DNA of 64,000 nucleotides from Azolla caroliniana (taxonomy: Eukaryota; Plantae; Polypodiophyta). Location: the NCBI GenBank assembly GCA_043228905.1, contig JBHGNT010000022.1, positions 4,402,001 to 4,466,000 on the forward strand, read 5' to 3'. The notes under the pieces were generated by a model. That model was not told the DNA's origin and made no database searches. It saw only the letters and a program-made list of their open reading frames with translations. This document shows positions 22,783 to 60,770 of this stretch, one piece after another. The translations under genes were made by a program, and so were the position numbers. Every line of letters starts with the position of its first letter. Position 1 is the stretch's first letter.

Positions 22783-23089
22783 TGTATGGAGAGACCTATA
22801 AAATCCTATAGTTGGGCTTGTGTAAAGGGGGAAGGGATGTAAGTAAAATAAGAAACTTTTAATGAAAGATCTGAGTTATCCTAATGGTGATGTATCTTGT
22901 CTCGTAAAACTAAAGTCAAGGGTTCAATCTCTATATCTCAATCTCTCTCTCTATCTTTTCATCCATCTATCTATCTTCAATACTTTCTCGCTTACACTAC
23001 TAAAAACATTGAATCCTTCCAATACAGGACCTCGACAGTTCCGCCTCACGATCCGCAGGTAGTGATGGATTTGTCACGACATAATAGAG

Positions 23090-23107
23090 TGGTGAACTTG
23101 ACGTGAA
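23090..23107 (+). promoter_or_regulatory. Primer-binding site, tRNA-Trp type (2 mismatches)
   Basis: tggtgaacttgacgtgaa versus tggtgaacccgacgtgaa in L. The latter is complementary to the plant cytosolic tRNA-Trp 3' end ...TTCACGTCGGGTTCACCA (recalled from memory, not searched). Confidence 0.8.
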
Positions 23108-24786
23108 AGAGGCGGTAGGAAGGATCAAGTCAAGGATCGATCGATACTTGGAGATGGCATCCTCAAGCAATCAAGCAGGAGAGTTTGAAAGGATGATGCT
23201 ACTTGTCGAACAAATGATGAGATCTTGGGACAACGATGCGAGTGTGGAGAAGGCTGTCGACCGTGTCGTGGAGCTCGAGGGTCAATTTGACGAAAGGAAC
23301 ATTACGAAGTTCCTTGATTCATACGGAAGGGAGATGAATCAGAGGGACGTGTCTAAAGCGCGTCAAATCAGAAGTTTCAAGAGAGTGGTCGCCAACAACA
23401 TCCAAAGGCGCGTCATCAAGCTTGAAGAAGACAAAACATGGTCCGAGTTCAAGAAAGCAATATTAGCGGAGTTCGCGATGTAAGATTTGTCGAGGATGAC
23501 TTGACATGCCTTGATTAAGTGGATAGAGAAGAAAAATAAGAAGGTAAGCACGTCGAGGGTGTACGACGAGTTCGACCAGATGTTTAGTCTTCTCCCTACC
23601 ACGGACCAAGTGTTGCTTGATGAGGACAAGACTTTGTACTTCTTGAAAGCTCTAGATATGAAGGATAGACGAGAATTGGGGACTCTCCTCGAAGATGATA
23701 CCCAAGCAAATAGGCTTGTGGCAGATTGGATTGCAGTGAAGTGAGCATGCAAGAGGCTAAACAAGCGTCGTCAATGGGTTGATGACACCAACTTGGCAGG
23801 ATCAACCAGGGAGAAAACGAGACAACCGAAAGTAGCTGAGCAGCCCAAACAAAGGAACCCGAAAGAAAAGAAGATTGATGAGGACATCATCAAAGAATTG
23901 GCGAAAAAGTTCGAGACAGTCACGCTAGCGAACATGAATCGTTGGGGCCTCAAGGGAAAAGAACCCTTTAGATGCGTGTGGTGCGATAGCATGGACCACA
24001 TGAGAAGGGATTGCGCAATCCTTCGAGAAGCCATTCGACAAAATATCATATACATGGATGGCAACATGATCTGCTTAAGTGAGACTAGAAGACCCCTACA
24101 GGCGAATTTCGGAAGGCGGGAGCAAAGTTTTGGTCAACCGTTCTCGAGTATGAGAAGAAGGGAAAGGTCACTTCGAACGAGGTTACAGCTTGCGGACCGA
24201 AGTATGCAAATTATAACTGGATGGTCGGATCAAATGGATGATAACACCATACTCGCGGAAGTGATGTGTGACAACCACGAGGTGTTCATGGATGAAAAGA
24301 GAAAAAGAATGGAATGTTACCGGCCGGCAAGGAGTCCAAAATACGGAGTGAAGGAATTAATTAAGTATGGTTGTAAATAAGCATAGTATGGACGGACGGA
24401 CTAGAAACGGTATGCCGTTCCAGATTCGGACGGATCCCGAATAGGTGCGATAGGCACCGTTTTGTACTACGGACCGGAAACCTATTTAAAGGCCCGGAGC
24501 CCATTGTAATCGCAGCGGATAATTAATAGAGCGTATGGTGTTTATACTTCTGTGTTGATTTCCGTTCTGTACTTACTGTTATATCTTACGCGTGTAATTA
24601 ACAAAAGCGCTCTAATCGTGTAACCTACGTAAGTCGGTGTAATCGTTGAGTCATAATCCTATGCCGTAATCACCCTTTGGTGAAGTGTCTCCGCGACACC
24701 TTGTGTTAGGCCTTGTCCGGTCAGAGAATAACACAGTTTTGGCTACCACGATTCCTGCTTTCTCGCAGCGAACGACGGCTTAATGG

Positions 24787-26110
24787 ATGACGAGACATAC
24801 GCACGACCTGGTTACAGACCGAGCTCGACGCCTCGCCGAACGGCAAAGACGGCGTGAGACTTTCCAGCAAGCAGCGCACGAAATTCGCTCGGATCGTTCG
24901 TTCTCCAACGAGATCCGGAGAGTCGCGGAGGAATCTCTTCGGTTACAGCAAACTCGCGACCAGGACGACGGAAGCGGTCTAAGTAGTCTCCGGGAAACCG
25001 AACGCCTCCTCGAGGCGCTGGCAAGCGGAGAAAACGAGGCAGAAGCCTTTTCAGCCTACGAATCGGATTCCGAAGGGGGATACAGCGTGCACACGAACTA
25101 CCGGAGCAGCAACGATACCCCCGGCGGCCCGGAGGACGACGGGTCAGATACCGTGCCCACTCCAGAACCGGAACCGTTCGACCAGGGCTATCCGGAACCG
25201 CAAACGGAAGCCGTCAACCCACCAACACCGGAAGTGGAAGAAGCAAAGCCACCGACACCAACAAAAGAGCTGGTGAAGGTACCGGAAGAAGAGCCGGTGA
25301 AGGAACCGGAAAAAGAACCGGAAGAGGAACCGGAAAAAGCACCGGCAAAAGAACCGGAAGTGGAACCGGAGAGAAAACCAGAAAGATATCAACAAACGCC
25401 ACTAAACCGCGGCCTAATACTGGACGACGACATGCCGTTCCAATAGTCAAAGTATCGCGATGATCCGGACGCGGAAGCGCATGTTCATGCCTTCGAGCAG
25501 ACATGGGAAGCAAATAACGCGTCCCAGCGACTGACACCGGAGGAAGAAGAACGCTCGAAGATAGCGGAATTCGGGGTCACGTTGGAAGGACCAGCGACAC
25601 GATGGCGGCGGACGCAGGACCCGGCGACCATCACAACCTTTGCAGAATTAAAAGCAAAATTCTTGCATTTTTTCCACAAGGAGGTCGACTAGACGACAAT
25701 GGTGGGCCTGTTTTATACGATCTGACAGGAGGCAGGGGAAAACATTCCCCAATTCGTCATCCGTTTCCAACGAATGCATAGCCAGCTTGCCCGTGCACCC
25801 CCGGAGGAGGAATTACGGACGATATTTTTAAACACACTCCGGGAACCGTTACGCACGGTGTGTACGGTGATCGACTTTCGAGGAAGTACCATTGACCAGG
25901 TCATTGACCGGGTCAGAGAAATGGAAAAGTCAAGCTCATGGCTTACACTGGGAGCACTGCAACGGGCGTTACCCACCGATGAAGATCTCCGGTTCTGGCA
26001 GGCAATTCAATGCACGATCTGCTTGAATGCCGGACACTCGGCAGTGGAGTGCACCATGCGAACCCAGTGTGTGATTTGTCAATCCAAGAGTCATACAACG
26101 GACCGGTGCG
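24787..26110 (+). pseudogene. gag of J: acidic/Pro-rich N-terminus, capsid region and two CCHC knuckles; three in-frame stops and a frameshift
   Basis: One frame is continuous through TAG 25444, TAG 25690 and TGA 25723. It includes DPDAEAHVHAFEQTW, TLEGPATRW, CTICLNAGHSAVEC and CVICQSKSHTTDRC. Confidence 0.85.
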
Positions 26111-29100
26111 ATCGGACCGTTATCGGGAGTCCAACAGACGACACGAGCAATACGACAGAGACCATTCCCCTGGTTACCGAAGGCACCAGGAGGACTACGG
26201 CCGATGTTACGATCCACCACGACAGGACTACCGAAATAAAAATAAGAATAATAAGAAACGTAATTTCAAGAAAGGTGGTCACACTAGGGACCCAGAACAT
26301 GGAACCCCAAGGAGCCAACCGGCACAGAACGCACCACTCACTACGGGACCGACTCCGGCTACCAGCAATGCTGAATCCAACAATACCCGTAAAGAGTACT
26401 GCTACTACTGCAGGCAGGAAGGCCACTACAGTAACCAGTGCCCGGCAAAGAGCTACGATAAACGACCAGCAGTTAATATGGTGGTTCCGGAAGTGGCGGA
26501 TGTACAGCAAGTAACCACACGGTCGAAAGGCATGGCCAAAGAGTGGGAAACACAAGAGGCCATACGAAAACAGGCGACGGAATGGGTGAAGGAAGCCAAT
26601 GAAAGGAACGTCGCGGACGCGGAACGGCAAAAAGCGAATACCATAGGGAGTGCCGGCGGTAGCCACGCAGAAAACGAGACATGGCAAGCACTGCAAGAAT
26701 GTCAGATCACGTTGCCATTAGGAAGACTCTTGCAGCTCATGCCGCGATTTACGGAAGGACTAAAAACGGTCATGACAGACGGTGTAGCCCCACCGGCACC
26801 AGTCCTCTTCTCGAATCCGGAGGAGGGACCGACGGTGGTGGACACTAGTAGTCCGGTGATTACAGCTATTGTCAAAGGGCACGAACTTCCCGGCACAGTA
26901 ATCGATGGAGGTTCCGGGGTGAACGTAATAAGCCTCCGCACGTGTGATGCCTTGGGTATACATGAATGGGAGCCATGTCCGTTCTGGCTACGGATGGCGG
27001 ATACGAGCTCTGCACGGCCAACGGGCTTAATACGGAAATTGGAGGTCACCATAGGAGGTCACACATTTCACATCTCGGCTGTAGTGCTGCAGCTACAGGC
27101 GCAAGGCGCGTACCCACTGTTGCTGGGCAGACCATGGTTGAAAACAGCACACATCAAGCAAAATTGGCGGAAAAATATGATTACCTTCCGGCGCGGAAAA
27201 GCCAAGGTTCGGGTACCGACACAACCACGGACGAGCAACGGTAAGGAATGCACACCGCTGTATGCGGAATGCGTGAACATGCTTGAAGGGTTGGCAGACG
27301 ACGAAGAAGCCGAGTACTTGGAGGAACACCCGAAGATCGTACCACTCTTCGAGATTGACGTAGCTGAAGCCGTAGCGCCATACTTGCCGCAGCGGGACGA
27401 AACCGAACCCGAACCAGACAAAGATGCGATTCGGGAATTACGGCAAGCACAGGAAGCGTTGGAACGGGAAATGGCCATTTCCCAACGGGTAAAAACATCC
27501 CAGCTCGATGAAGTGAACCTAGGAAGCAAGGACGAATCAAAGCCGGTACACATCGCCAAAGAAATGAAGCCGGAAGATAAAGCGGCGATGATCACACTTC
27601 TCACGGAGTTTCGCGACGTATTCGCCTGGTCATACGAAGACATGCGAGGGCTGGACCCTCAATTATATCAGCATCAGATCCACTTAGGCAAGGACGCGAA
27701 ACCAGTGGCGCAAAGACGTTACCGAATGAACCCCAACTACGCCGCCAAAGTGAAGGAGGAAATCGACAAACTCCTAAGAGTGGGCTTCATCCGGCCGGTA
27801 AAGAAAGCGACGTGGCTGAGCCCCATCGTCGTCGTCCCAAAGAAGAACGGTAAAATCCGCGTGTGTGTAGATTACAGGAAACTAAATGCAGCCACAATTA
27901 CGGATGCATTCCCTCTTCCGTTCACGGATGGAGTATTGGATGTCGTCGCTGGCCATGAAGTTTATAGCTTTTTAGACGGGTTCAGCGGATACAATCAAAT
28001 CCGGATGCACCCTGACGACCAGGAGAAGACAACGTTCGTCACCGAATGGGGGGTGTTTGTGGCCGTAGTAATGATGTTCGGACTAAAAATGGCACCAGCA
28101 ACTTTCCAGCGAATCATCATGGAGATCTTCGGCGAATACATTCCAGCCTTCATGCAGGTTTTCCTGGATGACTTTGCAGTCTATAGCCGGGAAAAAGACC
28201 ATTTGCAGCACCTACGGTTATGCCTTGAAAAGTGTAGGTTATACCGGCTAAGCTTAAACCCAGCAAAATGCATCTTTGGGGTTTCAAGTGGAATCTTACT
28301 GGGACACATTGTAAGTAAGGAGGGCATTGCGGTCGACCCGGACAAAGTAAACGCGATACTAGGGGCACCGGCGCCGAAAACGGCCAAAGCACTAAGCCCA
28401 TTCTTAGGACAGATCCGGTGGCACAGCCGGATGCTCCGTCACTTGGCTGACTTGGCTACACCATTACACACCGCGGTACATCGGACACCGTTCCAATGGA
28501 CGGATACGGAGGATAAGGCATACAATGCCCTGAAGGTACTTTTGTCACAAGCACCCGTCGTGCAGCCTCCGGATTGGAGCAAGGAATTTCATGTGTTCGT
28601 TGACGCTTCCGACATCGCTATCGGCAGCGCCTTAATGCAACATACGGAGCCTAAATGGTACCGGCCGGTATATTACGCCAGCCGGAAGCTGTCCCAAGCG
28701 GAGAAGAACTATTCGACGACGGAACGGGAGGCCCTGGGCATGATCTACAGTGTAACAAAGTTTCGTCATTACCTATTGGGAAGGAAGTTCTCCTTTCATG
28801 TAGATCACTCGGCGCTCCTGTACTTAGTGTCCAAGGCGTCCCTGACCGGTAAGTTGGCCCGTTGGACCTTGCTGTTGCAGGAGTTCGAATTCGAGATTTT
28901 CCACCGGCCCGGTATCCAGCATGTCGTAGCAGACTACCTGAGCCGGTTAGAGTCCGGAGAATCAGGCGACGGAGTATCGGATGAATTCCCGGACGCAGAG
29001 TTATTCCGTATCACCCCGGAAACGGCAGCGGACGACACGGTGGCATCAGAAGATAGGTGGCTGACAAACATGCACCAGTTCCTAAGCACGGGCCTGCCAC

Positions 29101-30380
29101 CGGAGGAAATGTACCGGGACGAGAGGAAACGACTGGCGGTGCAGAGCCGCAATTTCTATCTGTTACGGGACACTCTCTACCACAAGGGAGCAGATGGAAT
29201 ATGGAGACGGGCAGTCCGTAGTGACGAGAAACAAGTAATCTTACGGGAAGCACACTGTGGGGTTGCCGGAGGACACTATGCCGGGGAAGCGACGGCAAGG
29301 AAAGTATGGCAGAGCGGCTTATGGTGGCCCACGACGTTAAAAGACGCCGTCAAGTATGCTAAGGAATGTGACCTATGCCAACGAATGGGCCAGCCTACAG
29401 AGCAAGCACGGATGCCACACCAACCGGTACTTCCACTAGAGCCATTCCAGAAGTGGGGGTTGGATTTTGTCGGACCGTTCAAGCCACCGGCAATGAGAAC
29501 GGGTAATCGTTATGTCATCGTGGCAACAGATTATTGCACTAAATGGGTGGAGGCTAAGGCCTTGAGAGACAACACCGCGTCATCCACAGCAAAATTCCTG
29601 TACGAAAACATTTGGTGCCGATATGGATGTCCGATTGAGTTAATCAGCGACCAAGGAGGGCACTTCCTCGGCCAGGTAGTTGAAAGCTTAACAACGTTCT
29701 ATGCCGTGGTCCATAAACGGAGCACACCGTACTACCCACAAGCAAACGGGTTAGCAGAGTCAACCAACAAAACGCTCCAGAACATTCTCCGCAAAATCGT
29801 CAATGAAAACCGGACGGACTGGGATACAAAGCTCCATAGCGCGCTATGGGCGTACCGAACGGCATACAAAACAAGTATCCGGACAACGCCGTTCCGGTTA
29901 GCGTTCGGCTTAGAGGCGGTCATGCTGGTGGAATTTCAGGTACCAAGCTTACGGATCCAACTACGGGAACGGCTGAATGAAAAGGAATCGGAGGAAATGC
30001 GGCTAGCAGCACTATGCGAACTGGAGGAGCAATGGCTTGCCAGCATCCTACACATGGAACTAGAGCAACGACGACGAAAAGCGTTCGTTGACCGTCACCG
30101 GAAAGGTAATGAAAAGATGTTCGAAATCGGAAAGCCGGTGCTAGTATTCCAAACGAGGATGGGCAAGATGCCGGGTAAACTCCGGTTTAGATGGACAAGC
30201 CCGTATTGGCTGACATGGGAATACAACGGGTCCTATCAGTTAGGGACACTTGCCGGTGAAGTGCTAGGCAAGTGGGTCAACGGATTTAGACTAAAGCCCT
30301 ATAAAGGACCGATGCCAAGTGAAGGGACCTACGGATGTGTAAGATCACATACCATCATTAAAAATAAAATAAATAAATAA
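26010..30380 (+). CDS. pol: Pol polyprotein of J (third CCHC knuckle, aspartic protease, RT, RNase H, integrase); open frame
   Basis: Motifs CYYCRQEGHYSNQC, VIDGGSGVN, CVDYRKLN, FLDGFSGYNQI, FLDDF, VDASD..YASRKL..TEREAL, H..GH..C..C, WGLDFVGP and YYPQANGLAESTNK. No chromodomain. The listed start is not a true start, because the frame is normally fused to gag. Confidence 0.95.
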   Translation: MHDLLECRTLGSGVHHANPVCDLSIQESYNGPVRSDRYRESNRRHEQYDRDHSPGYRRHQEDYGRCYDPPRQDYRNKNKNNKKRNFKKGGHTRDPEHGTPRSQPAQNAPLTTGPTPATSNAESNNTRKEYCYYCRQEGHYSNQCPAKSYDKRPAVNMVVPEVADVQQVTTRSKGMAKEWETQEAIRKQATEWVKEANERNVADAERQKANTIGSAGGSHAENETWQALQECQITLPLGRLLQLMPRFTEGLKTVMTDGVAPPAPVLFSNPEEGPTVVDTSSPVITAIVKGHELPGTVIDGGSGVNVISLRTCDALGIHEWEPCPFWLRMADTSSARPTGLIRKLEVTIGGHTFHISAVVLQLQAQGAYPLLLGRPWLKTAHIKQNWRKNMITFRRGKAKVRVPTQPRTSNGKECTPLYAECVNMLEGLADDEEAEYLEEHPKIVPLFEIDVAEAVAPYLPQRDETEPEPDKDAIRELRQAQEALEREMAISQRVKTSQLDEVNLGSKDESKPVHIAKEMKPEDKAAMITLLTEFRDVFAWSYEDMRGLDPQLYQHQIHLGKDAKPVAQRRYRMNPNYAAKVKEEIDKLLRVGFIRPVKKATWLSPIVVVPKKNGKIRVCVDYRKLNAATITDAFPLPFTDGVLDVVAGHEVYSFLDGFSGYNQIRMHPDDQEKTTFVTEWGVFVAVVMMFGLKMAPATFQRIIMEIFGEYIPAFMQVFLDDFAVYSREKDHLQHLRLCLEKCRLYRLSLNPAKCIFGVSSGILLGHIVSKEGIAVDPDKVNAILGAPAPKTAKALSPFLGQIRWHSRMLRHLADLATPLHTAVHRTPFQWTDTEDKAYNALKVLLSQAPVVQPPDWSKEFHVFVDASDIAIGSALMQHTEPKWYRPVYYASRKLSQAEKNYSTTEREALGMIYSVTKFRHYLLGRKFSFHVDHSALLYLVSKASLTGKLARWTLLLQEFEFEIFHRPGIQHVVADYLSRLESGESGDGVSDEFPDAELFRITPETAADDTVASEDRWLTNMHQFLSTGLPPEEMYRDERKRLAVQSRNFYLLRDTLYHKGADGIWRRAVRSDEKQVILREAHCGVAGGHYAGEATARKVWQSGLWWPTTLKDAVKYAKECDLCQRMGQPTEQARMPHQPVLPLEPFQKWGLDFVGPFKPPAMRTGNRYVIVATDYCTKWVEAKALRDNTASSTAKFLYENIWCRYGCPIELISDQGGHFLGQVVESLTTFYAVVHKRSTPYYPQANGLAESTNKTLQNILRKIVNENRTDWDTKLHSALWAYRTAYKTSIRTTPFRLAFGLEAVMLVEFQVPSLRIQLRERLNEKESEEMRLAALCELEEQWLASILHMELEQRRRKAFVDRHRKGNEKMFEIGKPVLVFQTRMGKMPGKLRFRWTSPYWLTWEYNGSYQLGTLAGEVLGKWVNGFRLKPYKGPMPSEGTYGCVRSHTIIKNKINK

Positions 30381-30721
30381 AAAAAAAAAAAAAATCATTA
30401 AAAATCGAGGTATGAACGGACGTGAAAGGAAGGAGCGAAAAGGTACGTAGTGGGCATTTAAGAGCCGCCACATTACTTAATACTAAATTGGTACACGACG
30501 TGCGCATGCTCGAAAAAGGCGCCAAGACGCACAGAGAAAAAGCAGAACGCATGGAGACCTTTTTTTTTCGCGAGCCAAGAAGCACAGAAGCACCAAGGCG
30601 GTGGAAGCTTAGCAAACGCGAACCTGCACTCAGAGAACCCCCACGTTCGGAACTCTCTCTCTCTCACTCTCACTCTCATCACCACTCTACCTCGCCATCT
30701 TTCCTCGACCTCGAAGCAAAC

Positions 30722-33391
30722 ATGGAACCACAAACGCTGTCGAAAGCGGCCAGGAAATGGCTCAGGCAACACGGACTGGAGGGGTTCTTGACCATCATGG
30801 AGGCACCACCGCACAAAGAAGCCGACCGGGTCAACAAGGAGCTCGACACAGAAGTCATCACCGAGGAAGCGATCCATGCGCTAACAGGCCTTCCGGAGGG
30901 AGGTATTTTTCAGATAGATAACCCATCCTCGGAGCAACTCATCCGATATTTCGGTGAGTACTCTCTAGCCGGCAAAGGCTATCGAACGCAGGGCGGCGAA
31001 GATCCGCTATTCAGGGAGATAGCTCGAGTGCTCCATGAGTACGGCCACGTGTACCCCCGACCCCCTGTCATGCCAAAAAATCGGGCAGGGATGATCATAG
31101 CCACCTATGAAGGGATCAAGGTGGATTGGCCGGTGTTGATTGCAGACGGTTTGTGCGCGGCAATCGACACGGTACGAGGAAAGGACGGCAAGGAGGGCCG
31201 GAAGCTGTGGCATGCCGTAGCTCAGTGGATAACATTGCTCGCGCCGCCGGTCAAGACCGTCCAGCCAAAGAAGCGGCCAAGATTATCGGAAGGAAGCACC
31301 TCGAAACCCGCGTCCAAACGACAGCAGCTGCTGGCGTCGAAGGCAACGAAAGGGAAGAAACGGCTCCCAGAACCGGAGGAGGTGTCACCGATCCGACCCG
31401 TTAAGATAACCATACGGCGACCGGGACAGAAGGAACCGGAACCCTTGACGGCACAGATACATGCCGTTACCCAGGAAGAGGAAACGGAGGAGCCTGTAGA
31501 GCACCTCCAACGACGGTCAAGAAGTAGGACCGCCGGGACAGCGGGGGAGCGTTCGGACCTGCAAAAGGAAGAAACGCCCCCAACTCAACCTGAGCAAACC
31601 ACAAGGGAGGAACCGGAACCGGTGCGTATAGAACCGGCCTTGTTGACTTCTATACAAGAAGTCATTCCAACGGCTCCGGAGACGGCGAGAACCGGAACTC
31701 AACAGTCGGCGAGCCCAACCAGCACACCCAGCGGCCAAGGAGTAGAACCAGAACGGCAGATACAAGCACTCAGGCCAGACAATTCCACAGTGAACGAGCC
31801 GACCCGACCAGTACAGCAGCAAGGCACCAGTAGCATGTGGCTACGGTGGGTAGGCGAGCAGATCGCCGGAGCGGTCGAGTACATAGAGGCGGAGGAGAGA
31901 GCGCACCATGAACGGTTGCTCGTCACAACCGTAGATCTAGAGACGGCCCGGTCCAGAATCCGGAGCCTTGAACAAGACTTGGACAGGGTCACAAGGGAAA
32001 TGGCTCAATTGGCTTTGACAACACAAGTCCAAGCACCGGTGACTCCGGGCAATGTACAGAATAAAGCGTCAGATCAACATGTACATAGCAATCAGACCCC
32101 GGCAACGGAAACCGTTCCGGAGAGAAATGCGGCACAAGCCCAAGAGCTTGCGGACTTAAAGGATGAGCTAGCTGCCCAAGAAGCGCTGAGGAGCCGCGAA
32201 AGAGAGTTGAAGACGGCAGCGGAGGCAGAACTCAAAAAGACTGCTGAGAATCTACGCCGGGCCGAGGAGAGCTTACGAAAAGGCCACCAAGTGTACGACC
32301 GGCTCAAGGAGGAAAAGGAGAAAATGCTGCAAGAGAATGACAGGCTCCGGAGAAACGCCGAAACAGAAGTAGAGCGCCTGAAAGAGGAACTCCGGCAGCT
32401 AAAGGACCGGGAGGACCGGAACCATCGCCAGATCAACGGCAAGCTCAAACAAAAAACGGAGGAATTTGAGCACTTGCACCAGGAGTATAAACGGTTGCAA
32501 ACGGAGCACAAGGAACGGACGGATGAGCTTCGGCAAGCAGTTGATCGGACCGCAACGGCATACGCTAATGAACAAGCGGAAACCAGAAGATGGTTGGAAG
32601 AGGCGGAGAAGGTTCAGACAGAGCTCCTCAGGCAACAACAGGCGGAAAGAGAAAGAGCGGCGGAGGTACTACAGAGGCTGCAGACAACATATCAAGGGCA
32701 GCTGACGCGCTACAGAGAGCAGGCGGAGGATACGGCTAATCTCATCAAGCAGTTGAAGGAGGAACGACAAGTTGTGGAAAGTAGAGCGCAAATGGGAGCA
32801 AGTCGCATCCAGGATATCATGCGGGCCTGGTTGAAACAGACTAAGAGCTTGATCGACAACGGTTCCGTCAAATGGTGGACCAAGTGGGCCCCGAACGCGG
32901 CGGAACTCCAATTGCTCCGGGCCGACGTAGAGAACCGGCGGAAGGAGGGAGATGATTGCTATATGCTGACTTCCGAAGACTTCACAGGCATAAGAGATGA
33001 GCTGGCCGAAGACTTTCAAGCCTTGGCAGAGGACCAACTAGGGCAAGTTCGGCAACTTGTAGCTCAGCTGGACGACGACAGGCATGAGGCGCAGATCCAG
33101 TTTGAAAGCTACGAGAGGTCGCGGATCCGGGAAGAGAAAGCACGAGAACCGGTTACGGTCAACCTCAGTGATGAGGAACCGTTACTGGAAGGAGACCGGA
33201 CCGGAAGCAGTCAAACGGGGATGCCAGAGTCAGAGAAACAAACGGAGCAGCCGCCTATAGAGCAACCAGAGCAGTCTCAGTCCCAACCGCAACCACAGCA
33301 GCAGCAGCAAGCACAGCCGCAACAACCACAACCGGAAGAACACTTGGAAACTCTGGAACAAAGTATTTTGGACAATTTGGGTGAACAATGA
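30722..33391 (+). CDS. Extra ORF of J (~889 aa from ATG 30722; frame open from 30422): globular N-domain, basic NLS-like segment, disordered linker, long coiled coil, Q/P tail
   Basis: An uninterrupted frame between pol and the 3' LTR. It contains IHALTGLPEGG and GIKVDWPVLIAD, then PKKRPR..KRQQ..KGKKR, and a long E/R/K/L/Q heptad-like region. Confidence 0.85.
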   Translation: MEPQTLSKAARKWLRQHGLEGFLTIMEAPPHKEADRVNKELDTEVITEEAIHALTGLPEGGIFQIDNPSSEQLIRYFGEYSLAGKGYRTQGGEDPLFREIARVLHEYGHVYPRPPVMPKNRAGMIIATYEGIKVDWPVLIADGLCAAIDTVRGKDGKEGRKLWHAVAQWITLLAPPVKTVQPKKRPRLSEGSTSKPASKRQQLLASKATKGKKRLPEPEEVSPIRPVKITIRRPGQKEPEPLTAQIHAVTQEEETEEPVEHLQRRSRSRTAGTAGERSDLQKEETPPTQPEQTTREEPEPVRIEPALLTSIQEVIPTAPETARTGTQQSASPTSTPSGQGVEPERQIQALRPDNSTVNEPTRPVQQQGTSSMWLRWVGEQIAGAVEYIEAEERAHHERLLVTTVDLETARSRIRSLEQDLDRVTREMAQLALTTQVQAPVTPGNVQNKASDQHVHSNQTPATETVPERNAAQAQELADLKDELAAQEALRSRERELKTAAEAELKKTAENLRRAEESLRKGHQVYDRLKEEKEKMLQENDRLRRNAETEVERLKEELRQLKDREDRNHRQINGKLKQKTEEFEHLHQEYKRLQTEHKERTDELRQAVDRTATAYANEQAETRRWLEEAEKVQTELLRQQQAERERAAEVLQRLQTTYQGQLTRYREQAEDTANLIKQLKEERQVVESRAQMGASRIQDIMRAWLKQTKSLIDNGSVKWWTKWAPNAAELQLLRADVENRRKEGDDCYMLTSEDFTGIRDELAEDFQALAEDQLGQVRQLVAQLDDDRHEAQIQFESYERSRIREEKAREPVTVNLSDEEPLLEGDRTGSSQTGMPESEKQTEQPPIEQPEQSQSQPQPQQQQQAQPQQPQPEEHLETLEQSILDNLGEQ

Positions 33392-35645
33392 AGGGGCCGA
33401 GAAGGGTTCGACGTACAAGGTACTGTCCCACGGGCGTGCCATGTGTTACCGGCCGGCAAGGAGTCCAAAATACGGAGTGAAGGAATTAATTAAGTATGGT
33501 TGTAAATAAGCATAGTATGGACGGACGGACTGGAAACGGTATGCCGTTCCAGATCCGGACGGATCCCGAATAGGTGCGATAGGCACCGTTTTGTACTACG
33601 GACCGGAAACCTATTTAAAGGCCCGGAGCCCATTGTAATCGCAGCGGATAATTAATAGAGCGTATGGTGTTTATACTTCTGTGTTGATTTCCGTTCTGTA
33701 CTTACTGTTATATCTTACGCGTGTAATTAACAAAAGCGCTCTAATCGTGTAACCTACGTAAGTCGGTGTAATCGTTGAGTCATAATCCTATGCCGTAATC
33801 ACCCTTTGGTGAAGTGTCTCCGCGACACCTTGTGTTAGGCCTTGTCCGGTCAGAGAATAACATGGAAGGGCAAGAAAACCCATCAAAAAGACATGAAATA
33901 AGGAGCGCGAAAAAGAAAGAAGATGCAGAAACGAGTCGAGATTTACAAATGGAAGAAGGAGTCTCAAACTGGAAAGGGGAGTCGGGCAAACGAGTCAAAC
34001 AAACGGTTCGGTCCGTGAGGGTTGATGTCGAAAACCCTGCTCGAAAGACGAGAACTATGCCTACCTATAAGCTAAGGTCGGACATAGAGCAGACGACAGA
34101 TCTGAAGAAGATTCTCAAGGAACATGTTCTTGATAGCCATGTGCTCGGCATTACAAAGAAGGAGTAAAAATCCATAACGACGGCAAGGGATGACGTCGAT
34201 GAAGATATGTTGGACAACCACTATACTTGACCTCATTAGGCACGAGCGACAACGGAGACGATGGTGAAGATCGTGGAGAAGAAAGAGACTGTGGTAGCCT
34301 TGATTGACCATGGCTTGGAGATCAACCTCATGTCAACCGAGTTCTACAAAAACAGGAGATGGCCAATTAACACAAACCACGGATGGAATATTTGAGTGGC
34401 AACAAAGGCCACAGAGGACTTGTATGGAGCTTGTGCCAATGTTAAAGTCACAATTGGGGATGTGGAGATGGATCAACACTTCTTCGTGCAAGAATCGGCT
34501 TCGCATCCTGTCATCCTAAAATGAGTTGGAAGAGAGAATCTTAAAATGATCAAGCCAGGTAGGAGCTGGGTTTTGGCCGACGGTCTTCGAGTGCGAGAAA
34601 AAAGGAAAAATTGATTCAGAGGATCTAAAACATGTTGATTGGAACATCGACGAGTTACCGGATGGTCAGATGTAGTCGACGATAACACAAGCTTTGCGGA
34701 GGTTGTGTGTGACAACTATGAAGCTCTTGTCGAAGAGAAGAGGAAAAGAACCAGTGAAGAAGATGGGACATTAAAGCGTCCCAACACGAGGAACGCAAGG
34801 AAAGAAGGGCAAGCCCAAGCTACGCCAAGAAAAGAGGTTGGAGAAACAAGCATGATGCCCAGTGGATCGGGCCAACCTGCTCGGATGGAAGTCGATGAAT
34901 CAAAGAAGAAAGGAAAAGAATGAGCAACACCGACTTACAAGCTAAGGAGGGACATAGAACAAACAATTGACTTACAGAAGGTCCTTGAGGAGAAGGTTTT
35001 AGACAGTCATGTCGACCTTACTTTGAGAGAATTGCTTGGGATCGCGAAGAAGGAGTTCCATGATACTATTGTGGACCTTATTAAGTGGAAGCGGCAACAA
35101 TCTGATGAAGAGGAGGTGAAAACAAGTGCCATAACCATGGCAAGATCGGAAGAGGAGGAGGAAGAAGAAGTGGTGGCAGATAGCTATTACTCTCGACCTC
35201 ATTAAGCAAGAGTGACAATGGAGACATCGGTGAAGGTCGGGGAGAAGAAAGAGACCGTGGTAGCCTTGATTGGCCATGGCTCAGAGATCAACCTCATGTC
35301 GACCGAGTTCTACAAGAAAGGAAGATGGCCAATTAACACAAACCACGGATGGAAGATTCGGGTGGCAAGAAAGGCCACAGAGGACTTGTATGGGGCTTGT
35401 CCTAATGTTAAAGTCACGATTGGGGATGTGGAGATGGATCAAAAATTCTTCGTGCAAGAATCGGCTTCACATCATGTCATCCTAGGACAACTGTATATCA
35501 CATCATCCTGGATGGAGACCAAGGTGTTCGATAATGGAGCAGCCTTCGCATTACTCAAGAGTCTTGACAATCAAAGTTCTGTTCAATTCCTAATGGTGTG
35601 ATCTAATCATGAAAGAAATCAAGATAGTCTTGGGGCCGAATCCTC

Positions 35646-35708
35646 AAATTTTTAGAGCGGACTATTGAAGCATGGGGCACAAATAGTCCGAGCAATCACA
35701 AGTCCCCA
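35646..35708 (+). promoter_or_regulatory. Putative -1 programmed ribosomal frameshift signal (slippery heptamer plus pseudoknot) in element I
   Basis: A_AAT_TTT_TAG ends the protease frame, and the -1 frame runs open into the ORF at 35730. Stem cggactatt/aatagtccg; loop tgggg pairs with downstream cccca. Confidence 0.8.
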
Positions 35709-38700
35709 CAAGAAAGTAGAGCGCGTGGATTGCAAGGAGAAGCAACATGTGTCACACCTAGTGGTGCATGTAAACTAGTACTACCCAACAAAAAGGACAA
35801 GCGTCGGATACAACACTTCGAGAAGATGCTTAAAGAAGAAAACATAATAGAAGAAGAAGAATTCGTGACTTATATTATGGAAGAAGCCTCATTTAACGAC
35901 ACCATCGGCGAAATCGAGGAAGTCGTGGACTTGAGCTATCTTCACAATCAACACGTGATTTTGGTTAACTCTATCAACATGTACGCTATCATTGATGAAT
36001 ACCATCAAGGCATCTTGATGGAGGAAGCTGGAGTCAACACAAAATATAAAATGGTGCACAAGAAGATCAAACCAATTGCGGTTCTGCTACAGAAAGATAG
36101 CTGGCAAAAGCTGAAGGAAGTTGCAAAAGATCCAGGTTTAAGGAATCCAAAGACAATTGGTCATGTCTTCATTGACAAGACGAAAGGGAAGTTACGAGTT
36201 GGAAGGGAGTATTTTCTCCTCACTTAAGAGGAGCGAATGTTCCGCAGAATGCTTGAAAGACACGAGAAGGCTTTCACATTTATTCCATAGGAAATCAGAT
36301 GTGTTGATCCAAAGACAGTAGAACCGATGGTGATCTTCACGGTGCCACATGTGCCTTGGAATTTGAAATCGATACCGGTTTCGAAAGCACACCTACCGAA
36401 GTTGATTGAGTTGTTAAAGGAGAAGGTGAATATGGGAATTCTGGAATCGTCGAACGCTCCTTATTCTAATAGGTGGTTCATGGTGCCAAAGAAGAATGGA
36501 TCATTGCGATTCATCGAAGATCTTGAACCCGTCAACAAGGTGACAATTCGGAATGCCGGAATTGGTCCGAGTGTGGATGAATTTGCTGAAGCGTTTGGGG
36601 GCCGGTCCATCTACTCCATTCGTGATCTCTATTGTGGATACAATCAATTCCAGTTGGCGATCGACAGTTGTGACATTACAACCATGAGGACTCCGATCGG
36701 GATTGTACGAATGTGTACCTTACCTAAAGGTGCAATGAACTCGGTGGCTCATATAATGAATGCCATGAACAAGGTCTTGAAGGATTGCATCTCGGGCATC
36801 ACAATGTCATTCTTAGATGATATTCCGATAAAAGGATGTTCGGATGAGGAGAAGGATGAATCTAAAGATAAGGAAGGGTGTAGAAAGTTCGTCGTGGATC
36901 ATATGAAAGATTGCGAGAAGGTGCTCCAAAGGCTCGAAGATGCGAATTTGACATTTTCGGGAGAAAAATCCGCATTCGCGCAACCGGAGATCTTGGTGAT
37001 AGGTCACTTGTGTGGAGCATACGATCGGAAGTCTTCACCTTCCAAGCTGAATGCGATCCATGACATGAAAGAAGAATGTGTAACCTAAACAGAGGTTCGA
37101 AGGTTTCCTGGAGCATGCACGTTTTATCATATCTGGATACCGCACTATGCTCATGTCGCGGAGTCATTATATGGATTGTTAAAGAAACGAATGAAGTTCG
37201 AATGGCGAGACGGGCATAAAAACACAATGTGAAGATTGAAGAAACTACTTCTTGAAGCTCGAGCACTAAGAAAGGCCGACTATACCGAAGGGAAGCCGAT
37301 TTATGTGACTGTAGATACAAGCCCAACCGGAATCCGGTGGGTCATCAACCAAGAAGGAGAAGATGATGCGCGGTATGCCATCCGGTTCGGAGCAAAGGTT
37401 CTCAACGAATGACAACAAGGATACACCCAAGTCAAGCAGGGACTTTGGGGTATTGTGTCTGCAGTGAAGATGGATAAAGACTACCTGATCGGGTCGGAAG
37501 TGATAATCGAGACAGATTGTCTCCCAATCCTTGGGATGATCTCAAGATGTGCGACACCAGATCTAACAATGCTAAGGTGGATTGTCTATATCAAGTCTTT
37601 AAACCCAAAGATCCGCCACATTGCAGGAAAGAAGAACGCCATGGATGACATGCTGTCGAGGGCAAGATTTGAGAATGAAAGTGACTTGGTTTGGGAAGAT
37701 GAAGACGTCACCCTCTACTTCTTCAAGATGGCTCTACTATCACCGGAAGACAAGGGTTGCTAACCCTCTATGCCTTCAACGAGAACGAGTACGAAGGAGA
37801 GTGGTTACTAATCGGCAGATTCTTAAGAACAATGATGGCAGACGCTTCGTTGACGAAGGAGGAGGCTCTACGAATCCAGAAGAAAACTTATCAATACTTC
37901 CTGAAGGGAGGATACCTCTGGCGACACCCAAAGAGAAGGATAGGAATGCCACGTCGAGTGGTGGTGAAGAAAGAAGAGCAAGTGATGCTGATGAAGGAAT
38001 TCCACGAGAGTCTTTGGCCAGGTCATAGAGGAACATGGGCGACGTTCCAAAAATTGAAGGAGAAGTACTAGTGGCCAAGCATGTACAAAGATGTCCTCCA
38101 TTTCGTGTCCACATGCGAAACTTTCCAAGTACATTCTAACATACGTCATTGTGATGAATTACGGTCGACATACCCACTCACCATACACTTCAAATGGATG
38201 GTGGATCTGGTCTCCATGCCAATGGGAGTGGGGCAAATGAACTACTTAGTACTGGCAAGAGAAGATTTGACAAATCAAGTGGAAGGACGGGCCTTGGCAA
38301 ATAAGATGACGTCAACTGTTTGGAAATTTCTACTCGAAGAGGTTGTCTACCGATACGGATGTGTGGGGAAGATAGTGGTCGACCGAGGGGAGTTGGATGC
38401 ACACGAAGCAACGAAGCTCTTCGAATGACTAGGTGTGAAGGTCTCCCTCATGATTGCCTACAATATAGAAGCGAATGGGAAGATCGAGCGAGGACATGGA
38501 CCAATCGTCAAAGCCATCGTACGAGCATGCAACGGTCGAGTCGGGAACTGGCCACGACTATTTCCCTATGCCTTGTGGGCCTATAGAACTACACACAGTT
38601 CAGTGACAGGCTATACGCCAATAGAGCTTATGTATGAACAAAAGCCAGTAATGCCCATCGAAAGGACGATCATCTAATGGGTAGCGATACCATGGGAGAA

Positions 38701-39010
38701 CGAGATGAGCCGAGAAGAATTATTAACGGCACGGATAAGGTAGCTTGAAAGAAGGCCTGAAGATTTAGAAAAAGCACGAAAGATGATGGAGGCAGCTTGA
38801 GTGAAGAACAAGATTCGGTTCGAAAAGACACATCGATTGCATCCCAAGAAGATCGAAGAAGGAGATTGGGTATTGGTCTACGACAACAACCTTGATAATC
38901 AACAAAGGACAACAAGAAAGTTCGCAAGAAGATGGTTCAGACCGTATGTGGTGACAAGTGCCAATGACAATGCCACATACCACCTTGCGGAGCTAGACGG
39001 ATCAGGACGA
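35652..39010 (+). pseudogene. pol (RT-RH-INT) of element I, multiple stops and frameshifts
   Basis: ORF fragments at 35730, 36327, 37455, 37757, 38081, 38435 and 38801 carry RT, RH and INT motifs. Confidence 0.9.
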
Positions 39011-56583: not shown

Positions 56584-57317
56584 CACATACTCGAGGTGCC
56601 TTTCAAATATCAGAGTATCCACATGCCCGCGTTCTAGTGCTCTTTTCCGGGATTGCTCATGTACAGACTCACCATTTCGACTACATATCCAATATCCAGT
56701 TGGGTACACACCATTGCGTACATCAAGCTCCTGGATAGCTTGCAGTTTCCCGGGAGTGTCAATCCGACCGGTGTCGTGAAGATTTCCGGCTATAGTGTGA
56801 AACCGGGGTGGAATAGGCAAGTCGGTGGTGTGCAACATGTGCACATGTATACTAGGATATGGTGTATAGAAAGAGAGGGGAAATTTTTGTCCCACATTGT
56901 AAGGTCCCTCCCTCCTTGGGCTATAAAAGGAAGGGAGGGGTCACTTATGAAGGGGTTGCCTATTTTGTGCGAGTAAGGTATACCACTTAGTCTAGGGTTC
57001 TCCCTCTTCCCATTTCGTTTTAGGGTTAGGGTTTCGGTTAGGGTTTTCTTCTTGGGTTTCTCTTTAGGGTTTTCGGATAGTCATTTTGGTGCGGCCATGG
57101 CAGCCACCATTGTTGTAACCATTCGTTGTTTTAATATAACTTGTTGAGCATCTTGCCTCCGCCGATCCCTCCTTCGATGTCGTGGTCTTATTCTTTCCTC
57201 TTCTCCTCTTGAGCTAAGCCTCCATATCATGTCCTATTCTTTCTCCTCCACTCCCTAGTCCAAGACCCCCGTGGTCCCGCCCCTTCTACACGCACGCGCG
57301 TAACAACGCGACATCTT

Positions 57318-57335
57318 TGGTGAACCCGACGTGAA
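57318..57335 (+). promoter_or_regulatory. Primer-binding site complementary to the tRNA-Trp 3' end
   Basis: tggtgaacccgacgtgaa, 4 nt after the 5' LTR end. Confidence 0.85.
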
Positions 57336-57350
57336 GGGTGGCAAGGGAGC

Positions 57351-60300
57351 ATGGAGATGGAAGAAGACTTGGACTTCGAGGAGATGATGGCAAAAATCGG
57401 GATGGAAGCCGGACGGAAGATGGCGAAGCGAGGTGCGGCTCAACAAGCCGTCGAAAGGGTGGTCAATCGAGTCGGCCAATTCAACGGGGACGATGTCCCG
57501 AGGTTCTTGGAAGCGTACGAGGCCGAGATGGCGAAAGGGGGCGTGGACGAGGAGATGCGGCTAGAGTATTTTCCTTGAGTGGCGGCCGCATTGGTGCACA
57601 AGGAGGTCAAGGAGCTACGAGAAGCTCACGAGTCGTGGGTGTCCTTGGAGGTAGCCCTATTGGAAGCGTGCGGATACACGAAACCGGAGTGAGTATGCCG
57701 GCAACCCGATGGGGAGCGGTCGGCAACAACGTGGCCCGCGAGCGGCAGAGAAGAGAGAGCGGCGAGTGAGTACGCACTACTGCCGGAAGAGAGCTCAACG
57801 CAAAACGGTTCGGAGGAGCTCGACCTAGAAGCGCTAATATGAGAGGCATGCGAGCTTGTGAAGGCGAAAATTTGAGCCGAAGAAGGGCTTGTTATGGAGA
57901 CGGGCCGGAGGCGATCGGAGGATGTGGAGGAAGAAGCCTCCCTAGACGTAGAAGACGGGGCCTATACGGAGGCCGGGAGAGCGTACGATGGCGAGATAGG
58001 AGAGGGTGCGGAGCAAGCGACCCTCTTGCCTTGCGGTGAAGGGACCGGTAACTACGGATTCGGGACATGGCGGCCCGAAACATCGAGTGAGGAGCGGACA
58101 AGCGGCGGTGCCGCGACCTTACACACACCGGTCCTAGAGACTCCGGCATCCGGCCCGAGAGCCGGTGTGAGACCTAGAGTGACGGATGGTGGCGGCGGCA
58201 AGGCGGGCAACCGAGACGACGGCATGGGAGAGATGGTGGCAAGCGTAATCGAGGTTTGCGGAATCGAAGATGGGGTAGCTGTGGACAACGACGACCGGAC
58301 GGAAGCGGCTACTGACACAACGAGTGGCGGTGCCGGGTCCTTACCCACACCAGTCCTAGAGGCTCCGGCGGCCGGCCCGAGTGCCGGCGTGAGACCTAGA
58401 GCGACGGGCCGTGGTGGCGACAAGGCGGCCTACCACGGCGACGAAGAGAACGAGGAAGAGATAGCCACGGACCACGACGTCCGAACGAAGGTGGCTACGA
58501 ACATAGCATCGACGAGTAACGATATCGGGACTTTTCCCACACCTATTCTAGAGACTTCGGCAGTCGGCCCCGAGAGCCCACGTGAGACCGGAGAGACAGA
58601 AGGTGGCGGCGGCAAAGCGGACGATCGAAACGACGACGAGGAAGGTCGTAGCGGACGGAGGCAAGACCTCTCGACACCGAGACCGGAGACTACGGCGGTT
58701 GCGCTCGAATGCCAACATAAGACCGGAGAGAAGGGCGGTGGCCGTGAGGAGGTGTGGCCCGGAGCGAACACGTAGGAAAATGAGGACGCGAGGCCCGGAA
58801 CAGGCATATACGAGAGGACCGACGGAGAGGTCGGGAGCGGCAAAGAGGAGAGAGTCGGGAACCGACCCAACCGGAAGATGGACCGGTCGATAATCCGACA
58901 TGACCGGAAGACGACGCGGAAGAACATTGTAGCGGGGTCTGGTCAACCGGGCCTGAACTGAAGAAGAGTTGGCAAGGTCGGATTTGTTCGGACAAACATC
59001 TACCGGCCGGTTACGATTACGGAAGGGAGCCGACCTAACCGGAACTCGATCGGCCGAGACCGATCCGGGCGAAGGCTAAGTTGGCACGGTTGGAGGTCGA
59101 GGCGAACGGGCCACAACACCCGGTGGGAGCCGGTGAGCGCGAGAAGGAAGCTAACCGGGCACGGTGATTACGGCTTGGCAGAAGACCAAGAGCGAGAGGA
59201 GCCCTCCACATCTATCCTTGAGACTTCGGCGGTTGCGGATCAACATAAGACCGGAGACACAACGGGTGGCGGTGAGGAGTCGGAAACCGGAACTGATGAG
59301 GCCACTGGAACGGGTACCCGGTGCGTGAAGACGGACGAGCACGGCCAAGACGGCAAGCCGGAGTCGAAAGGGGCTACGGCAAGAAAGGACGAAGAGACCG
59401 ACGCGGAGGTCGGGTCTACGACGGATGAGGCGCGTAAAACGGAGCATGCACTACGGCCAGCGAAGGGCCAAGAAGTAAGCATGCAACCGGAAGAGCGGCA
59501 ACGAGTGACCGACAACGGTGGACCAGTCGAGCCTTTGAGAGACAAGCACGTGGCGAGAGACGAAGCCGTAAGGTGCCGAGATCGGCGGATGGGTGGCGAG
59601 AGCGAAGGATGGTGCGCGGAGAACAACGGGGTACACACCGGGAAGAGAAAACGCAGCGGCTTCCCGGAGGACATACAAGGCCAAGCAGGCCAAGAGGGCG
59701 CAAGTGGAGGCGAGGCGGTAACGAGAGCCTCGAGGGACACCGACACCGAGGTCGGGATGACGGTACGCTCTACGGCGAGAGAGCACGACGGGCAAAGGAG
59801 AGGCAAGGAACGTGGAATGGGGTCGCCTAAGGGCCAAAGAATGAGCACATATTTGGGGGACAACATCGGCGCACGAGAAGAGCCTATGGAAGGCAAGCGC
59901 GGAGCAGGAAGAGTCGACACGCCGAGGTGTTCGGCATGCGGACACGATAAAACCAAAGGAGGAACATATGCGGCACGAAAAGGGCGGAATCCGGAGTACG
60001 ATCGGAGAGTTCAGGAGCGCACCCGGAGAACATACGAGCCTTTGCGAGGAATGCGCGCGGCGAGAGACGGAGCGGTGAGGTGCCGGTATCAGCGGATGAT
60101 CGACGAGCATGAAAGGCTATGTCTTGAGAACCGGAGGAGGTGCGTGAAGAGCAACGGGCTACGCGCCGGGAAGAGGAAGCACGGCTTCCCGGAAGGCATG
60201 CGAGGCCAAGTGGGCCAAGAGGACGAGAGTCGGGATGAAGCGGTAACGGGAGTCGCAAAGGACATTGACATGGTGGTCGGGATGACGGTACGCTCTATGG

Positions 60301-60770
60301 CGAGAGAGCACGACGAGCAAGGGAGAAGGAAGGAGCGCGTAATGGGGTCACGTAAGGACCGAAGAACGAGCACGCATTCGATGGACGACAACGACGCACG
60401 GAAAGTGCCTACGGAAGCCGAGTGCAGAACGAAGGGAGTCGGTACGAGGTGTTCGGGGCGAGGAGAAGGTCGAGCCGGAGGTGGAACACACGCGATACGC
60501 GAGGAGCGGCACCCAACGAGCAATCGAAGTAATCGGGGGTCTAACCGGAGGACATGCTCGGTGAGCGAAGGAAGGGAGACCGGATCGGCAATGGTGTTCG
60601 GGATGGCCGGTCGAAGAAGAAGGTGCATGCGCCGTACATGGCGGATCGGATGGAGCCGACGGTTCGGGGAAACGCGGTGGACGTGGTGGATCGGATGGAG
60701 TCGGCGGGTCGGGGCCGGCAAGACAGATCGGCGCCAGCAAGGGACCAGCAAGGCGGTTGGGTGTCGGTAA
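57351..60770 (+). pseudogene. Single long frame of L: Gag N-terminal domain plus repetitive disordered extension (~1140 codons, six internal stops)
   Basis: ORFs 57351, 57894 and 59133 share one frame, with stops at 57576, 57690, 57840, 57873, 58773 and 58959. AVERVVNRVGQFNGDDVPRFLEAYEAEM aligns with AVDRVVELEGQFDERNITKFLDSYGREM of I. Confidence 0.72.

What the first reader, a model, noticed from the sequence alone, without database searches (positions are those of the whole stretch)
30380..33391. Intact ~890-aa accessory gene carried downstream of pol in young gypsy element J
Seen: a sense ORF with no stops lies between pol and the 3' LTR. It is preceded by an A-run (30360-30395) and a CT-rich patch (~30650-30700) that could be an internal promoter or leader. 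The protein has a ~180-aa globular N-terminus, basic NLS-like clusters, a disordered linker and a coiled coil of about 400 aa. No signal peptide or transmembrane segment is evident, so it is not Env-like. Known: Athila/Tat/Ogre elements carry extra ORFs, some with plant-mobile-domain or SMC-like hits. Inference: the 'I.ALTGLP..G' and 'VDW' motifs recall those domains. It is a candidate nuclear anti-silencing or targeting factor of unknown function.
Basis: partly seen in the sequence, partly recalled or inferred. Interest (0 to 1): 0.78.

Follow-up and report, generated by a model that had tools for sequence, protein, structure and literature searches.

The report
VANC-like third gene in Gypsy retrotransposons
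A large group of plant jumping genes carries a third gene, kept by natural selection, whose front part is predicted to fold like VANC21, a protein that other plant transposons use to remove host silencing marks, so it likely binds DNA and helps these elements switch themselves on (untested).

Summary
Confirmed. An 889-codon sense ORF (30722-33391) lies between integrase and the 3' LTR of a 9.5-kb Gypsy element. It is a real gene. It is under purifying selection between subfamilies (dN/dS 0.10 N-domain, 0.19 coiled coil, 0.04 pol). It sits at the same place in at least six related families of this genome and co-descends with integrase, but diverges much faster (35-50% versus 67-94% identity).

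Best reading: a nuclear DNA/chromatin-binding accessory factor, likely anti-silencing (about 50%). Against it: no VANC-type motif arrays, and copies show CG/CHG methylation damage. This copy's gag is broken.

The scan reported a VANC-fold retrotransposon gene before, in another genome. It also reported this clade's tRNA-like replacement of the polypurine tract many times.

The parts
24310..24314 (.). Target-site duplication TGGAA (second copy 33863-33867)
   Evidence: sequence
24315..24733 (+). 5' LTR, 419 bp, TG...CA
   Evidence: 2 differences from the 3' LTR
24740..24750 (+). Primer binding site, tRNA-Arg type (assignment of this variant recalled, not tested)
24784..30380 (+). gag-pol, a single frame in relatives; here gag has three stops and a deletion, and the pol 3' end is deleted; zinc knuckle, RT, RNase H, integrase; no chromodomain or extra RNase H hit
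30360..30721 (+). Spacer: A-run, weak TATA-like site near 30455, in-frame ATG at 30551, subfamily-specific CT insert 30655-30678
   Evidence: function not shown
30722..33391 (+). Third ORF, 889 aa
   Evidence: dN/dS 0.26 (0.22-0.32) overall between subfamilies
30722..31276 (+). N-terminal helical domain (aa 1-185), predicted VANC21-like fold
   Evidence: dN/dS 0.10
31268..31441 (+). Basic clusters, candidate nuclear localisation signals (aa 183-240)
   Evidence: basic clusters after the domain in all 4 families examined
31442..31816 (+). Proline/acidic linker (aa 241-365), close to neutral at the amino-acid level
   Evidence: dN/dS 0.69 (0.45-1.07)
32129..32821 (+). Predicted coiled coil (aa 470-700)
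   Evidence: heptad signal; dN/dS 0.19 (0.13-0.27)
32822..33166 (+). Conserved C-terminal helical block with a W-x(3)-AAEL...ENR(R/K)K motif (aa 701-815)
   Evidence: (hit in 39 of 40 loci); dN/dS 0.22
33356..33388 (+). Short acidic-hydrophobic tail motif (ILD-type) at the very C-terminus, candidate host-protein docking motif
   Evidence: seen by eye
33404..33441 (+). tRNA-Arg(TCT) 3'-end-like sequence ending in CCA, 2 nt before the 3' LTR, in place of a polypurine tract
33444..33862 (+). 3' LTR

Best explanation
This is a selected third gene of a plant Gypsy retrotransposon clade whose protein is predicted to share the fold of the transposon anti-silencing factor VANC21 and likely works as a nuclear DNA/chromatin-binding factor that helps the element escape host silencing. 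Shown: the gene is real, ancestral to the clade, inherited with integrase, fast-evolving and free of membrane segments. Predicted: the N-domain has the VANC21 fold (DUF1985/plant-mobile-domain type by the literature), and a long coiled coil follows. Inferred: the basic clusters import it to the nucleus; the N-domain binds the family's own DNA; the coiled coil oligomerises; the conserved C-terminal block and acidic tail recruit host chromatin factors. It would act in trans, in limited cell types or time windows, since most copies carry methylation damage.
Confidence: 0.5

Rival explanations
1. Same fold, but a targeting or import role: the protein would tether the integration complex to chosen chromatin or carry it into the nucleus, in place of the chromodomain that this clade lacks.
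For: No chromodomain hit in pol. Strict co-inheritance with integrase. Basic clusters. No target-motif arrays, which a tether would not need.
Against: The N-domain diverges far faster than integrase, more than a fixed integrase partner would suggest. Hits are spread over all large contigs; insertion preference was not measured.
Confidence: 0.2
2. The VANC21 resemblance is a coincidental helical arrangement. The protein is an independent accessory factor (for example an RNA/particle scaffold, a movement helper or a transcription activator) of the Athila ORF-1 type.
For: Modest Z, no sequence link, no Foldseek hit. Weak language-model leads point to clusters with ATHILA (73% of members) and Transposase_32 (87%) at score 0.84, below the tool's 0.9 mark. 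Athila ORF-1 has the same 3' sense position (PMC6317226 supplement MOESM4).
Confidence: 0.22
3. Env-like protein for cell-to-cell spread.
For: Position and orientation match plant env-like ORFs (PMC7264820). Pyrimidine-rich acceptor-like sites precede the start in families C, D, E and F.
Against: No hydrophobic segment: maximum 19-residue hydropathy 0.87-1.31 in five proteins of four families. No acceptor-like site in subfamilies A and B by the same rule.
Confidence: 0.05
4. Neutral passenger or recently captured host gene.
For: Most copies are broken (15 of 20 sisters). A single host copy could hide among thousands of element hits.
Against: dN/dS far below 1 with dS about 1.2-1.3. Present across the whole clade with a congruent tree. 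No named homologue.
Confidence: 0.03

Closest known systems
VANC21 of VANDAL21 (Arabidopsis MuDR; PDB 9LNK; PMC5735166, PMC13547354)
   Same: Predicted fold of the N-domain; transposon-encoded accessory gene; globular domain plus predicted coiled coil; fast divergence between families.
   Different: Here the gene is in an LTR retrotransposon, not a DNA transposon; no DUF1985/DUF287 sequence hit; no tandem motif arrays; no function shown. VANCs are described as dicot-specific.
PMD-A plant mobile domain ORFs of Gypsy elements (Ogre; PF10536; PMC5418596, PMC6317226)
   Same: Gypsy-encoded extra ORF near the 3' end; same fold family by the published VANC-MAIN link (not compared directly here).
   Different: Ogre PMD ORFs are mostly antisense (431 of 434, MOESM4) in elements with an extra RNase H. 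This ORF is sense, has no PMD hit, its domain is about half the 347-position profile, and pol shows no extra RNase H.
Athila ORF-1 (PF03078) / Transposase_32 (PF20167) extra ORFs
   Same: [quoted passage not shown]
   Different: No Pfam match; no membrane segment; primer site is tRNA-Arg type rather than the tRNA-Asp typical of Athila (MOESM5); no polypurine tract.
Retand/Grande antisense ORFs (Transposase_28, SMC-like hits; PMC7264820, PMC11963269)
   Same: Extra ORF with coiled coil; nuclear localisation is reported for Grande gene23.
   Different: Antisense, Tat lineage, different Pfam family.

Membership tests
VANC anti-silencing proteins | DUF1985/DUF287 sequence match | tested here: not met
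   No hit for the protein or 114 aligned relatives
VANC anti-silencing proteins | VANC21 fold | tested here: inconclusive
VANC anti-silencing proteins | Encoded by a VANDAL/MuDR DNA transposon | tested here: not met
   Encoded by a Gypsy LTR element
VANC anti-silencing proteins | Short target motifs repeated in the element's non-coding DNA | tested here: not met
   No enrichment in family A; weak in others (best 3 of 60 shuffles, family F). Sparse or degenerate sites are not excluded
VANC anti-silencing proteins | Sequence-specific DNA binding and demethylation in trans | not testable with these tools
   Needs binding assays and methylomes
Plant mobile domain (PMD-A, PF10536) | Pfam PMD match | tested here: not met
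Plant mobile domain (PMD-A, PF10536) | PMD fold | tested here: inconclusive
   Only indirect, through VANC21 and the published VANC-MAIN similarity; no PMD model was compared
Athila ORF-1 / Transposase_32 | Pfam PF03078 or PF20167 match | tested here: not met
   feature-level lead of 0.84 only
Athila ORF-1 / Transposase_32 | Sense position between pol and 3' LTR | tested here: met
Env-like ORFs | Transmembrane segment | tested here: not met
Athila lineage (REXdb non-chromovirus|OTA|Athila) | No chromodomain, no additional RNase H, 5-bp TSD | tested here: met
Athila lineage (REXdb non-chromovirus|OTA|Athila) | Primer site for tRNA-Asp/Asn (84% of members) | tested here: not met
   Arg-type sites (MOESM5)
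Athila lineage (REXdb non-chromovirus|OTA|Athila) | Placement in RT/RH/INT phylogeny | not testable with these tools
   REXdb reference sequences (MOESM3) too large to read

The most novel reading that the evidence does not exclude
An LTR-retrotransposon clade carries its own VANC-type, family-specific anti-silencing protein. The VANC/plant-mobile-domain fold would then be an ancient Gypsy accessory domain, probably older than flowering plants, from which host MAIN/MAIL genes and DNA-transposon VANCs were later drawn, and which may also underlie Athila ORF-1-type genes.
Probability: 0.3. Interest if true: 0.85.

Novelty: new variant of a known kind. Interest (0 to 1): 0.63.

Why it matters
The function of extra ORFs in plant LTR retrotransposons is an open question (PMC7264820; PMC12844716 asks whether such ORFs shape the elements' methylation). 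In the papers read here, protein-based anti-silencing is shown only for VANDAL DNA transposons. A VANC-fold gene kept across a whole, very abundant Gypsy clade (about 4,500 first-look candidates in a 523-Mb genome, not a copy count) gives a concrete, testable function for such ORFs. It bears on whether the plant mobile domain arose in Gypsy elements or in host genes (two scenarios in PMC5418596; host-to-VANC capture proposed in PMC13547354). Several diverged families in one genome also offer a natural test of protein-target co-evolution.

Tried and rejected

Genome searches for DUF1985, Transposase_32 and PMD found nothing, but their controls did not ring, so absence is not shown and no profile-profile comparison could be built. 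The metagenome scan for the distant clade's DNA context gave 44 pattern matches, none confirmed, so whether that clade sits in Gypsy elements, and in which organisms, is unknown.

Expression: no RNA holder listed. Only contigs could be laid; no canonical splice joint was listed, and depth was not used. The homodimer prediction for residues 470-815 gave no verdict.

CpG observed/expected did not separate this element from its neighbours. The target-motif search was negative. The CT patch as a conserved promoter was rejected. TATA-like sites were seen in 6 of 8 spacers with a loose pattern and no null model, so they are not counted as evidence.

The VANC21 structure paper (Tanaka 2026) and Sasaki 2022 were not held, so DNA-contact residues could not be mapped. 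No paper describing this family, or a VANC-fold ORF in an LTR element, appeared in searches. Subscription papers, bioRxiv supplements and REXdb MOESM1/MOESM3 were not seen and could hold related ORFs.

Full report
Observation. The frame 30416-33391 has no stop; from ATG 30722 it encodes 889 aa. It lies in sense between pol and the 3' LTR of an element spanning 24315-33862, with 419-bp LTRs that differ at 2 positions and a TGGAA target-site duplication. Pol gives Pfam hits for RT, RNase H and integrase, and none for a chromodomain or an extra RNase H. The window's copy is damaged: three stops in gag and deletions of about 176 bp in gag and about 137 bp at the pol end relative to sisters. The host is a 523-Mb genome, by inference a land plant; other notes of the scan guess fern or moss, which I did not test.

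A real gene. The N-domain finds 150 of 150 scored matches at 92-100% identity among 4,617 first-look candidates. Of 20 fetched sisters, 5 keep the ORF open and none keeps gag-pol whole. An older subfamily B (about 75% nucleotide identity in pol, about 68% in the ORF) has the gene at the same place. I aligned 20 A and 17 B copies for the ORF (4 of 41 dropped for coverage) and 18 A and 14 B for pol. Counting only variants shared by 3 or more copies, with kappa 4, dN/dS between subfamilies is 0.10 (0.06-0.15) for residues 1-185, 0.30 for the basic region, 0.69 (0.45-1.07) for the linker, 0.44 for the first helix, 0.19 (0.13-0.27) for the coiled coil, 0.22 for the C-terminal block and 0.04 for pol RH-INT. 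Caveats: dS is 1.2-1.3 in the best-conserved regions, near saturation, and copies were picked by likeness to the N-domain.

A clade-wide gene. Searches with distant relatives led to further families in the same genome. Pol sequence lies upstream of the domain in 75 of 80 fetched loci, and the conserved C-terminal block follows in 39 of 40 loci. Several copies of family D have identical LTRs with both frames open. Trees of integrase and of the N-domain (29 of 31 rows; 2 dropped as too short) give the same clades and differ only at one weakly supported deep fork. Between the more distant families, identity is 67-94% for integrase and 35-50% for the N-domain; within two close pairs it is 93/77 and 90/69. 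The gene is therefore ancestral to the clade, inherited vertically and fast-evolving. Library searches found 194 representatives and 250 proteins; those with sources shown are unnamed or 'hypothetical' ENA/JGI entries. One large group at about 25% identity has no close match in this genome (best 28-36%); its DNA context could not be obtained.

Anatomy. Residues 1-185 form a helical domain. Basic clusters follow in all four families examined, then a variable linker, a coiled coil (heptad signal about 505-714), a conserved C-terminal block and a short acidic-hydrophobic tail. Hydropathy never exceeds 1.31 in five proteins, so an Env role is unlikely. The CT patch is a subfamily-A insert. An upstream in-frame ATG (30551) is possible for A and B, but other families start at the position of ATG 30722. 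How the gene is expressed is unresolved.

What is known. VANC21 binds a nine-base motif arrayed in non-coding tandem repeats and demethylates its family in trans (PMC5735166, passages). VANC is structurally homologous to MAIN and is modelled to oligomerise through a coiled coil, as is the Athila domain (PMC13547354, passages). PMD-C resembles DUF1985 (10.1101/2024.09.27.615353, passages). PMD-A clades are Gypsy-encoded in angiosperms (PMC5418596, passages). Extra ORFs are common and heterogeneous; PMD occurs in 57% of Ogre elements, mostly antisense, and Athila ORF-1 is sense (PMC6317226, passages and supplements MOESM4 and MOESM5). Their functions are unknown (PMC7264820, parts 1-2 of 3). I saw passages only of PMC11728184, PMC11963269, PMC12859917 and PMC12844716, and the abstract and outline of 10.64898/2026.03.20.713144. 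A Gypsy extra ORF of the PMD/VANC fold family is thus a known kind; this sense-oriented family without sequence-level similarity is a new variant. It is not a member of VANC or PMD-A by the sequence tests.

Mechanism. Most likely the protein enters the nucleus, binds its family's DNA or chromatin through the VANC-like domain, oligomerises through the coiled coil, recruits host factors through its conserved C-terminus and eases silencing in trans (all inferred; 0.5). Private mutations at CG and CHG sites run at 0.012-0.014 per site per copy, against 0.0013-0.0014 at A/T sites. The host therefore methylates this family; there is something to counter, but copies are not kept unmethylated. The VANC hallmark of motif arrays is absent. 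That leaves room for an integration-targeting role (0.2) or an unrelated accessory function (0.22).

Earlier notes of the scan. Three notes describe a VANC21-fold gene inside the LTRs of a retrotransposon in another genome; I reached the VANC21 hit before seeing them and did not test whether that gene is homologous. No note was returned for this sequence. Many notes describe the missing polypurine tract of this clade, which I had seen independently.

Verdict. It is a new variant of a known kind, interest 0.63.

Noticed in passing
window 33404-33443; L031-L120; L122-L125: No polypurine tract. A sense copy of the tRNA-Arg(TCT) 3' end with a hairpin insert, ending in CCA 2 nt before the 3' LTR, was matched in 53 of 81 sequences scanned (misses not examined, some lack a 3' LTR). 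Three loci carry an uninterrupted 3' half of the host tRNA plus CCA directly before this family's LTR (L123-L125), which fits tRNA priming of the plus strand. Already reported by many notes of this scan.
   Followed up: partly
L115 (G000:C8:18137250-18147200): Element of family F with 98% identical LTRs about 6.1 kb apart that keeps the third gene but shows no RT, RNase H or integrase match: a possible non-autonomous derivative carrying only the accessory gene.
   Followed up: no
window 56772-61405: A young LTR element (542-bp LTRs, 99.3% identical) with a GC-rich, internally repeated interior and a 602-codon open stretch (58962-60770) that shows no obvious gag-pol by eye.
   Followed up: no
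window 22900-24314 and 33863-39000: The element is inserted into an older, degraded Gypsy of a different type; the window is a dense nest of Copia and Gypsy elements.
   Followed up: no
whole window: Most elements show little CpG depletion (observed/expected 0.8-1.4), although young copies mutate strongly at CG and CHG sites.
   Followed up: partly
window 25263-25384: A 12-bp tandem repeat encoding a Pro/Glu/Lys stretch in the gag N-terminal region.
   Followed up: no
G000:C6:12500077-12500646 and G000:C12:15281181-15281750: Two hits have open frames of 1,512 and 1,762 codons over the N-domain, possibly pol-ORF3 fusions by deletion.
   Followed up: no
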